The notes below the pieces were generated by a model that was not told the DNA's origin, made no database searches, and saw only the letters and a list, made by a program, of their open reading frames with translations. DNA of 44,117 nt from Candidatus Tayloriibacteriota bacterium (GTDB lineage Bacteria; Patescibacteriota; Minisyncoccia; Phycocordibacterales; PALSA-1337), in assembly GCA_003151615.1 (NCBI GenBank), contig PLXZ01000004.1:1-44117 (forward strand), given 5' to 3'. Made by a program: the position numbers and the translations under genes. Positions 40,494-40,619 of the stretch are shown in pieces. How positions within the stretch are numbered: position 1 is the stretch's first letter; every line of letters starts with the position of its first letter.

Positions 40494-40619
40494 ATGAACA
40501 CACCAGAACAAAATCAGGCATCAACACAGTCGGCTCCGGTTCAGTCCCAGCCGAAAGCCAAGCCGTTTGTCTGTCCGGTCGATCCGGCTGAACTCGAACA
40601 GTGCGACAGCTGTCAGTAG
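40494..40619 (+). CDS. 41-aa microprotein, free-standing homolog of the NrdA C-terminal cysteine tail
   Basis: Manual translation MNTPEQNQASTQSAPVQSQPKAKPFVCPVDPAELEQCDSCQ*. Below the ORF-track size cutoff. Confidence 0.8.
   Translation: MNTPEQNQASTQSAPVQSQPKAKPFVCPVDPAELEQCDSCQ

What the first reader, a model, noticed from the sequence alone, without database searches (positions are those of the whole stretch)
40494..40619. Free-standing 'RNR C-tail' microprotein between nrdA and nrdB
Seen: a 41-codon ORF ending VCPVDPAELEQCDSCQ*, matching the NrdA end VCPTDPAEKALCDSCQ*. All three Cys, DPAE and DSCQ-stop are kept while the codons differ (tgc/tgt, gat/gac, agt/agc), which suggests protein-level selection rather than a fresh duplication. 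The N-terminal part is a Q/S/P-rich flexible linker. Established: the C-terminal Cys pair of class I RNR alpha shuttles reducing equivalents from thioredoxin/glutaredoxin to the active-site disulfide. Inference: a detached, trans-acting tail could be a diffusible redox shuttle, a three-Cys metal ligand for the Mn/Fe beta subunit, or a competitive regulator. That would be a third RNR component missed by gene callers.
Basis: partly seen in the sequence, partly recalled or inferred. Interest (0 to 1): 0.82.

Follow-up and report, generated by a model that had tools for sequence, protein, structure and literature searches.

The report
Free-standing ribonucleotide reductase tail microprotein
A conserved 41-residue gene between nrdA and nrdB encodes a detached copy of the enzyme's cysteine tail, and relatives whose enzyme has lost that tail always keep such a gene, so it probably delivers electrons to the enzyme as a separate peptide.

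Summary
ORF 40494-40619 (41 aa) ends FVCPVDPAELEQCDSCQ*, matching the NrdA end VCPTDPAEKALCDSCQ*.

It is a real, selected gene, not junk. The same nrdA-micro-nrdB layout recurs in two metagenome relatives and in one genome of another family. The flanking spacers are scrambled while the ORF is kept (pN 0.04-0.22, pS 0.49 to about 1, omega 0.03-0.21).

I found 15 further free-standing copies of 31-45 aa, all with nucleotide context (16 with the window), in three recurring settings: between nrdA and nrdB, beside mutY/recG, and after lexA.

Key result: in a 401-genome sample of the order, 74 genomes carry this NrdA. Of these, 71 keep the tail and 3 lack it. All 3 tail-less genomes, plus a fourth outside the sample, encode a free-standing tail elsewhere. 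They show no other RNR, and two of the tail-less NrdA that were aligned keep the active-site cysteines.

None of the 327 genomes without this NrdA has the microprotein.

Best reading: a trans-acting redox shuttle for a class Ic-like RNR, born by fission of the nrdA 3' end. The biochemistry is untested and the complex prediction gave only weak support.

The closest precedent is the split class II NrdJa/NrdJb. Gene callers did call the ORF, but no source names it.

The parts
37676..40444 (+). nrdA, class I RNR catalytic subunit (922 aa) with ATP-cone, a long low-complexity linker and its own Cys tail
   Evidence: PF03477, PF00317, PF02867. Active-site C229, N442, C444, E446 and C459 are invariant in 48 aligned orthologues.
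40394..40444 (+). cis tail of NrdA: VCPTDPAEKALCDSCQ plus stop
   Evidence: The identical tail is found in relatives L136 and L138.
40435..40463 (+). best promoter-like match of the region (TTGTCA-17-TATTAT, 10 of 12), ending 31 nt before the micro-ORF start
   Evidence: This is a consensus match only: 9 sites found against 5.3 +/- 2.6 in shuffles.
40445..40493 (+). spacer 1, AT-rich, not conserved among window, L136 and L138
   Evidence: alignment.
40494..40619 (+). micro-ORF, 41 aa: a Q/S/P-rich N-terminal part and then KPFVCPVDPAELEQCDSCQ*
   Evidence: Conserved, under purifying selection, with free-standing relatives.
40569..40619 (+). conserved tail core of the micro-ORF (VCP-DPAE-x3-C-x-x-C-Q-stop)
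   Evidence: C27, P28, D30, P31, A32, E33, C37, C40 and Q41 are invariant in 13 free-standing sequences.
40620..40651 (+). spacer 2 before nrdB; no terminator-like site
40652..41674 (+). nrdB, class Ic-like radical-generating subunit (340 aa), Phe at the radical-site position
   Evidence: PF00268; best solved relatives are 1syy, 4d8f and 2ani at about 248 bits, and F aligns with F.
42112..42142 (+). terminator-like hairpin after nrdB, the only one on the + strand in 37400-42200

Best explanation
The 41-codon ORF is a functional gene. It encodes a free-standing version of the class I RNR alpha-subunit C-terminal redox tail.

Shown:
- It is conserved as an ORF under purifying selection.
- It is homologous along its whole length to the last ~40 residues of same-genus NrdA proteins, and it sits where their tail sits, directly before nrdB.
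- Relatives of it occur as independent genes.
- Every lineage found whose NrdA has lost the tail retains such a gene.

Inferred mechanism:
- The terminal CxxC dithiol of the peptide enters the NrdA active site after each turnover and reduces the C229-C459 disulfide.
- It leaves as a disulfide.
- It is re-reduced by one of the genome's small glutaredoxin-fold redoxins and the thioredoxin-reductase-like flavoprotein.

Inferred origin: fission of the nrdA 3' end. A second tail plus stop arose upstream and left the ancestral tail as its own cistron. This was followed in some lineages by relocation (beside mutY/recG, or after lexA) and loss of the cis tail.

In this window both the cis and the trans tail are present. 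Here the peptide would be an additional, diffusible copy of the shuttle.
For: (1) Free-standing relatives exist.
- Reading 1.84 billion representative proteins gave 5 hits, all short (37-72 aa), and 3 of them matched end to end. One more came from the word-index search.
- Six-frame searches found short frames with stops on both sides in G175, G382, G068 and G326. Motif scans added G336 (=G431), G121 and G432.
- Metagenome contigs L136, L137, L138, L140, L141 and L152 carry it as well.

(2) Selection.
- In window, L136 and L138 both spacers are scrambled, while the start codon and the last 20 codons are kept.
- By Nei-Gojobori on the last 20 codons of 9 copies (36 pairs), pS is 0.49 to about 1, pN is 0.04-0.22, and omega is 0.03-0.21 in the 13 pairs where dS could be computed.

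(3) Complementarity in the same 401 genomes of the order.
- 74 have the orthologous NrdA.
- 71 of them carry the tail: 69 by pattern, plus G415 and G301 with variant tails.
- 3 are tail-less (G336, G382, G121), and all 3 have a free-standing tail gene elsewhere.
- Among the 71 tail-bearing genomes, 4 have one as well.
- Fisher p = 5.4e-4.
- A fourth tail-less genome, G432 (locus L053), also has one.

(4) The tail-less NrdA is needed and still uses the disulfide chemistry.
- L042 and L053 keep C229, C444 and C459.
- G121, G336, G382 and G432 show no class III RNR.
- G121, G336 and G382 show one class I/II catalytic gene only. G121 is one contig and 100% complete.

(5) Co-occurrence. The microprotein is in 7 of 74 genomes with this NrdA and in 0 of 327 without it (p = 5.7e-6).

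(6) Origin.
- The G003/L015 NrdA C-terminus ...NPAQSQVSPHAQPQSSIKVKPKVCPIDPAELAQCEACQ* resembles the whole microprotein.
- The G002 and G003 tails abut nrdB where the micro-ORF sits.
- G002 DNA matches the micro tail, spacer 2 and the nrdB start.

(7) Partners exist. The genome has two glutaredoxin-fold proteins, one of them YruB-family over its cut-off, and a TrxR-like gene.

(8) Complex prediction. NrdA 95-790 with the peptide scored 0.45, 0.48 and 0.48 against a best control of 0.00; partner pLDDT was at least 44. The tool's verdict is 'weak support'. The mark was reached by 58 of 80 solved complexes and 2 of 110 mismatched pairs. At 0.60 or under it was reached by only 7 of those 80 and by both mismatches.
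Against: - No biochemical, proteomic or transcript evidence.
- The three tail-less genomes of the sample all belong to one family (f86) and share the mutY context, so they are probably one evolutionary event. With G432 that makes about two independent events, and the Fisher values overstate the support.
- The microprotein profile itself missed the G431 and G432 copies. They were found only with a looser motif. Within the flanked group the identification rests on about 12 residues plus ORF shape.
- In this window NrdA keeps its own tail, so a trans copy is not obviously needed.
- Same-genus genomes G002 and G003 do without it, and 0 of 80 species-representative loci have it within 4 kb of nrdB.
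- A tethered tail has a large effective-concentration advantage over a free peptide.
- An attempted in-trans reconstitution of a class II RNR with its separately expressed Cys-rich domain gave no activity (PMC5704485, passage seen).
- No classical thioredoxin (PF00085) was found in this genome, which is 92% complete.
Confidence: 0.62

Rival explanations
1. Competitive regulator. The peptide mimics the tail, occupies the NrdA active site or the redoxin, and so throttles or gates dNTP synthesis, in the manner of small RNR inhibitors such as yeast Sml1.
For: - In the window, G175, G068 and G326, NrdA keeps its own tail, so a second copy could compete rather than help.
- Two copies lie directly after lexA-like genes and six lie beside mutY/recG-like repair genes. 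That would suit damage-linked control.
- Sml1 is described as competing at the R1 catalytic site (PMC6382339, passages seen).
Against: - An inhibitor cannot explain why all 4 tail-less NrdA genomes keep the gene while having no other RNR detected.
- The redox CxxC is strictly kept in all copies. A pure blocker would not need it.
- No sequence relation to Sml1 was tested.
Confidence: 0.15
2. General small dithiol carrier or metal-binding peptide whose clients are not, or not only, RNR. Clients could be peroxiredoxin or repair enzymes. The likeness to the NrdA tail would reflect origin only.
For: - 12 of the 16 copies with nucleotide context lie away from nrd genes.
- A Bcp/peroxiredoxin-like ORF lies two genes from the G431 copy.
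- The genome lacks a classical thioredoxin.
- Three Cys are present in the window's copy.
Against: - The microprotein was found only in genomes with this particular NrdA: 7 of 74 against 0 of 327.
- Its sequence tracks the NrdA tail variants (QCDSCQ, ICDSCQ, ICIGCE).
- The first Cys is not conserved, so a three-Cys metal site is not a family feature.
- No Pfam domain.
Confidence: 0.13
3. Non-functional remnant of a partial duplication or allele replacement at the nrdA 3' end. The ORF would be open by chance, and its synonymous differences inherited from the time when both tails were parts of NrdA genes.
For: - The ORF is positionally and sequentially the old nrdA 3' end.
- It is absent from same-genus G002 and G003.
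- No RNA evidence.
Against: - Three lineages with NrdA only 81-86% identical keep the ORF, its ATG and its tail, while both spacers have randomised.
- omega is 0.03-0.11 among these three.
- Independent copies exist at other loci, with their own start codons.
Confidence: 0.05

Closest known systems
C-terminal redox tail of class I RNR alpha (NrdA/R1): a disordered tail with a Cys pair, mostly CxxC
   Same: Same motif at the extreme C-terminus (D-P-x5-C-x-x-C-Q-stop). Clear homology to the NrdA tails of the same order. It is preceded by a low-complexity flexible segment, like the NrdA linker. The role of the tail in re-reducing the active site is established (passages seen).
   Different: It is not part of NrdA. 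It is a separate cistron with its own start codon, in another frame, and in 12 of the 16 copies with nucleotide context it lies at an unrelated locus.
Split class II RNR NrdJa + NrdJb (Cys-rich C-terminal domain encoded by a separate gene)
   Same: A catalytic subunit without C-terminal cysteines, plus a separate gene that carries the electron-relay cysteines (PMC5704485 and PMC9669993, passages seen). G382, G336, G121 and G432 show the same logic.
   Different: - Class I, not class II.
- The detached part is a 31-45 aa, probably disordered peptide, not a folded 150-220 aa zinc-finger/IscU-like domain.
- No homology between them. The JBC paper itself states that no similarity between class I tails and the class II domain was detected.
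- In the window the catalytic subunit still has its own tail.
Trans action of the eukaryotic R1 CX2C tail, and the small RNR inhibitor Sml1 (Zhang et al. 2007, known to me only through citations in PMC6382339 and from recall)
   Same: It shows that a tail need not act on the polypeptide it is attached to, and that a small unstructured protein can compete at that site.
   Different: There the tail is still covalently part of a neighbouring R1. Sml1 is an inhibitor with no CxxC shuttle role. The primary paper could not be read here.
NrdH / glutaredoxin-like redoxins
   Same: Small CxxC proteins, often encoded in nrd operons, that pass electrons to RNR.
   Different: Those have a thioredoxin fold of about 75-80 aa. 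The microprotein has no Pfam match and is too short for that fold. The genome has its own Grx-fold proteins elsewhere.

Membership tests
Class I RNR alpha C-terminal redox tail | Cys pair (CxxC) within the last few residues, after a flexible segment | tested here: met
   C37-x-x-C40-Q41-stop is invariant in 13 free-standing sequences.
Class I RNR alpha C-terminal redox tail | Homology to the tails of orthologous NrdA proteins | tested here: met
   the microprotein profile hits NrdA C-termini (open frames of 824-1010 aa) in about 40 genomes; whole-length likeness to the G003 NrdA end.
Class I RNR alpha C-terminal redox tail | Covalently part of the alpha polypeptide | tested here: not met
   stop codons on both sides, a different frame from nrdA, 49-nt spacer.
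Class I RNR alpha C-terminal redox tail | Shuttles electrons from a redoxin to the active-site disulfide | not testable with these tools
   Only indirect evidence: complementarity with tail-less NrdA and a weak complex-prediction pass.
Split RNR of the NrdJa/NrdJb kind | Catalytic subunit lacks the C-terminal cysteines, which are on a separately encoded protein | tested here: inconclusive
   Met in G382, G336, G121 and G432. Not met in the window itself, where NrdA keeps its tail.
Split RNR of the NrdJa/NrdJb kind | Class II (B12-dependent) enzyme; the detached part is a folded Cys-rich zinc-finger domain of 150-220 aa | tested here: not met
   class I domains with an NrdB partner. The detached part is 41 aa with no Pfam domain.
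Thioredoxin-fold redoxins (Trx, Grx, NrdH) | Thioredoxin fold detectable by family profiles | tested here: not met
   0 Pfam families for the 41-aa protein at E up to 0.01.
Gene remnant / pseudogene | No constraint: dN/dS near 1, ORF broken or absent in relatives that keep the segment | tested here: not met
   omega 0.03-0.21. The ORF is intact in L136, L138 and G175.
Sml1/Spd1-type small RNR inhibitors | Sequence or structural relation to those proteins; inhibition of R1 | not tested
   No comparison was run. The resemblance is one of size and target only.

The most novel reading that the evidence does not exclude
In some Patescibacteria of this order the class Ic-like RNR is a three-gene enzyme. 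The electron-relay tail is a diffusible 31-45 residue peptide, which is essential where NrdA has lost its tail and is the only RNR. It may double as a minimal general dithiol carrier in genomes that lack classical thioredoxin. The window would capture the intermediate stage of this fission, with cis and trans tails side by side.
Probability: 0.5. Interest if true: 0.85.

Novelty: new variant of a known kind. Interest (0 to 1): 0.78.

Why it matters
RNR is essential, and its electron relay has always been described as a tail tethered to the catalytic subunit, or in class II as a folded domain that is sometimes split off. A natural, selected, free peptide version in class I would matter in three ways.

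1. It would show that tethering is dispensable. It would also provide a ready-made system, a tail-less NrdA plus its peptide, for studying how the tail reaches the active site and the redoxin. This has been hard to study because the tail is disordered.

2. It would add a functional microprotein to genomes in which such short ORFs are routinely left unnamed.

3. It would document a gene-fission pathway with its stages preserved in living lineages: duplication of a 3' end, then an independent cistron, then relocation, then loss of the cis copy.

Tried and rejected
- **RNA evidence.** No RNA holder was listed for window 40250-40900.
- **Earlier scan findings.** Nothing was found by sequence.
- **ESM Atlas.** Best hits were 0.88-0.89, unnamed clusters. 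That is under the 0.9 line and gives a lead only.
- **Rfam.** No family at E up to 1 in 40300-40800, so a known RNA element does not explain the conservation.
- **Tandem-duplication idea.** My first alignment was flawed because the two segments overlapped. The corrected run shows that the similarity is confined to the 50-nt tail, so there is no duplicated spacer.
- **Microprotein profile on G431 and G432.** It found nothing. This first looked like evidence against complementation. A looser motif with positive controls then found both copies.
- **G415 and G301.** They looked tail-less by pattern, but they have variant tails NPADDETLICDSCQ* and DPATKFICDGCA*.
- **Other extra motif sites.**
  - The second motif site in G303 overlaps a long opposite-strand gene, and I judged it chance.
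  - The second motif site in G399 contains a stop codon, by my reading of the matched string.
  - Sites in G077, G105 and G086 are not microprotein-like.
- **L036.** Its 93-aa tail frame is a frameshifted NrdA in a locus with 10 N, and it was not counted.
- **Class-level sample.** Of 331 genomes only G000 and one same-order genome matched.
- **Viral contigs.** There are 3 related contigs with a 23-aa tail-like frame and no RNR genes in the fetched flanks. They are unresolved.
- **Literature.** Eight searches found no paper describing a free-standing class I tail. Zhang et al. 2007 is not held. Supplementary files were not consulted.

Full report
**The observation**

The window holds nrdA (37676-40444, 922 aa; ATP-cone, all-alpha and barrel domains) and nrdB (40652-41674). 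Between them lies an ATG-initiated ORF at 40494-40619, which gives MNTPEQNQASTQSAPVQSQPKAKPFVCPVDPAELEQCDSCQ*.

- NrdA ends ...KVCPTDPAEKALCDSCQ*.
- The two tails align over 50 nt with 36 identities. The local score is 30, against 17.2 +/- 2.1 and a maximum of 27 in 300 shuffles. Several differences are synonymous.
- The likeness stops at the tail.
- The ORF is in another frame than nrdA, and its open frame is only one codon longer than the ORF.

**Is it unique?**

No.

- HMMER read 1.84 billion representative proteins and returned five hits at E up to 1e-3. All are short (37, 37, 38, 49 and 72 aa), begin with Met and end (K)PFVCPxDPAELxQC[DE]xCQ.
- A sixth came from the word-index search.
- These proteins come from NCBI, JGI/IMG, ENA and Logan predictions. 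One is on 13 contigs. The only name given is 'hypothetical protein'.

So gene callers do call the ORF. It is simply unannotated.

**Close relatives**

- Among 80 species-representative loci with NrdB 79-92% identical, the tail motif occurs once per locus, as the NrdA C-terminus just before nrdB. None has a free-standing tail ORF within the fetched flanks.
- Same-genus genomes G002 and G003 have the NrdA tail directly before nrdB and no micro-ORF.
- Two metagenome contigs (L136, L138; NrdB about 96% and NrdA 81-86% identical) have exactly the window's layout: nrdA ending VCPTDPAEKALCDSCQ*, a micro-ORF, then nrdB.
- G175, from another family of the order, has nrdA, a micro-ORF, a 151-aa ORF and then nrdB.

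**Selection**

Aligning window, L136 and L138 from the nrdA end to the nrdB start shows both spacers randomised. The micro-ORF start (ATGAAYACAC.AGAA) and its last 20 codons are kept, with mostly third-position changes.

Nei-Gojobori counts were made on the last 20 codons of nine free-standing copies:

| Measure | Value |
|---|---|
| pS | 0.49 to about 1 (saturated) |
| pN | 0.04-0.22 |
| omega, all pairs where computable | 0.03-0.21 |
| omega, among window, L136 and L138 | 0.03-0.11 |

**Origin**

- The NrdA C-terminus of same-genus G003 (also L015) reads ...NPAQSQVSPHAQPQSSIKVKPKVCPIDPAELAQCEACQ*. It resembles the microprotein over its whole length, including the Q/S/P-rich part.
- G002 DNA matches the micro tail, spacer 2 and the nrdB start at 71% identity.
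- The window's cis tail matches other genomes' NrdA tails.

I infer that the micro-ORF is the ancestral nrdA 3' end. It was detached when a second tail plus stop arose upstream.

**The key test: tail-less NrdA**

G382 has the microprotein on one contig, while its NrdA ends ...LRQQAKGE* ten bases before nrdB. Loci L042 and L053 likewise end ...KKKNQN* and ...ETKNNK*. The microprotein profile found nothing in their genomes, G431 and G432. A looser motif scan, with G382 and G068 as positive controls, found one in-frame site in each. Both lie at the end of short Met-initiated ORFs:

- G431: MQQEQNPTESTVEVRTNRPRIYAPQDPAEEGICIGCE*
- G432: MKEEELVLRIETPKQEPKAFDFPDVEDPAQAYICDSCQ*

I then surveyed one fixed sample of 401 genomes of the order with the motif and with an NrdA segment. 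I cross-referenced the two tables and fetched the unresolved cases.

| Group | Genomes | With a free-standing tail ORF |
|---|---|---|
| Orthologous NrdA, tail present | 71 | 4 (G000, G175, G068, G326) |
| Orthologous NrdA, tail-less (G336 = G431, G382, G121) | 3 | 3 |
| No orthologous NrdA | 327 | 0 |

- The 71 tail-bearing genomes comprise 69 found by pattern, plus G415 and G301, which have variant tails.
- Three in-frame motif sites in the 327 genomes without this NrdA were inspected and are not microprotein-like.
- The reversed-pattern control gave 14 hits by my count, against 104 forward hits.
- Fisher tests give p = 5.4e-4 for 3/3 against 4/71, and p = 5.7e-6 for 7/74 against 0/327.

The three tail-less genomes are all in family f86 and share one context, so they are probably a single event. 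With G432 there are about two independent events. One of the 71 tail-bearing genomes, G283, is flagged unpublished. It enters these counts only.

**Do the tail-less enzymes still need a reductant?**

- In 48 aligned NrdA, including L042 and L053, residues C229, N442, C444, E446 and C459 are invariant.
- No class III RNR is found in G121, G336, G382 or G432, whereas G000 has one.
- G121, G336 and G382 have a single class I/II catalytic gene. G121 is a single-contig genome and 100% complete.

A tail-less NrdA as the only RNR argues that something else supplies the relay function.

**Contexts and subtypes**

Sixteen free-standing copies were seen with their nucleotide context, the window included:

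| Context | Copies |
|---|---|
| Between nrdA and nrdB | window, L136, L138, G175 |
| Divergent from mutY-like and recG-like genes | G382, G336, G121, L137, L140, L141 |
| After a lexA-like gene | G326, G432 |
| Other | G068, L152 |

Three further database proteins (P0003, P0004, P0007) have no context.

The first Cys (VCP) is missing from the ICIGCE and lexA-linked subtypes and from many NrdA tails. The constant core is therefore D-P-x5-6-C-x-x-C-[QE]-stop. This speaks for a redox pair, not a three-Cys metal site.

**Partners, expression signals, prediction**

- G000 has no PF00085 thioredoxin.
- It has a TrxR-like gene scoring 256.7 bits, under the curated cut-off.
- It has two glutaredoxin-fold proteins, one of them YruB-family over its cut-off.
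- No terminator-like site separates nrdA, the micro-ORF and nrdB. The best promoter-like match of the region lies just upstream of the micro-ORF. These are consensus matches only.
- No Rfam family matches the spacer region.
- No RNA run was listed.
- Complex prediction of NrdA 95-790 with the peptide scored 0.45, 0.48 and 0.48, against 0.00 for all three controls. Partner pLDDT was at least 44, and the runs agree in at least 60% of their contacts. The tool rates this 'weak support'. The mark was reached by 58 of 80 solved complexes and 2 of 110 mismatches, but at 0.60 or under by only 7 of those 80 and by both mismatches. No interface was given.

**Range**

In a class-level sample of 331 genomes, only G000 and one same-order genome matched the 13-sequence profile. 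Three related viral contigs carry a 23-aa tail-like frame with no RNR genes in the fetched flanks. This is unresolved.

**Comparison with what is known**

- Class I RNRs use a disordered C-terminal tail with a Cys pair, mostly CxxC. Much about RNR C-termini is stated to be unknown (passages of bioRxiv 10.1101/2022.04.23.489257 and PMC9669993).
- The nearest precedent is the split class II NrdJa+b, whose 150-220 aa Cys-rich domain is a separate gene (PMC5704485, passages). That is a folded, unrelated domain in another class.
- Eight literature searches found no description of a free-standing class I tail. Supplements were not seen.
- The NrdB here is closest to solved chains 1syy, 4d8f and 2ani and has Phe at the radical-site position. 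Assigning those entries to the Chlamydia class Ic protein is my recall.

**Verdict**

The micro-ORF is a real, selected gene. About that I am roughly 90% confident. It most likely encodes a trans-acting RNR electron-relay tail (about 60%). The window preserves the stage at which cis and trans tails coexist. Function remains inferred from comparative genomics.

Noticed in passing
L226 3700-3795, L227 3983-4078, L228 3922-4032 (IMG/VR contigs): Three related phage-like contigs carry a 23-aa frame MESVQGIMCPVDPAEREQCEGCQ* with the RNR-tail motif. No NrdA or NrdB lies in the fetched flanks. In two of them the frame overlaps a 216-aa frame on the opposite strand.
   Followed up: partly
G000:C5:403497-405245 and whole genome G000: The window's genome also encodes a class III RNR (NrdD, 654 bits). 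It shows no PF00085 thioredoxin at 92% completeness.
   Followed up: partly
window 40652-41674: NrdB has Glu in the first metal-ligand motif (FFNPAE) and Phe four residues after the first His of the EEANH motif. Its best solved relatives are 1syy, 4d8f and 2ani, which fits a class Ic-type (Mn/Fe) beta subunit. The class assignment is partly from recall.
   Followed up: partly
L121 4519-4974 (G175): A 151-aa repeat-rich, coiled-coil-like ORF sits between the micro-ORF and nrdB.
   Followed up: no
L040 3324-3857: A pilin-like ORF (N-terminal GFTLIELLVV...) is inserted between nrdA and nrdB. This NrdA tail reads KPFVCPIDPDELAACESCQ*, like the microprotein.
   Followed up: no
L036 3526-3807: The NrdA linker and tail lie in another frame than the catalytic body, giving a 93-aa frame, in a locus with 10 N. 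This is either a frameshift or an assembly error, or a larger natural split.
   Followed up: partly
L005, L008, L026, L041, L061, L067, L072, L074: In these relatives NrdA ends 230-760 nt or more before nrdB, so something is inserted between the two genes. Not examined.
   Followed up: no
L093, L127, L217, L137, L140, L141; L133, L220: Away from nrd genes the micro-ORF sits beside DNA-repair or SOS genes: mutY-like plus recG-like in six cases and lexA-like in two. A Bcp/peroxiredoxin-like ORF lies two genes from the G431 copy.
   Followed up: partly
window 36558-36989: A 143-aa ORF with an HNH-like C-terminal motif (HVPLEIDHIDGN...CPNCH) lies next to sequence at about 36430-36610 that looks tRNA-like on translation artefacts. 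Seen only in the ORF list.
   Followed up: no
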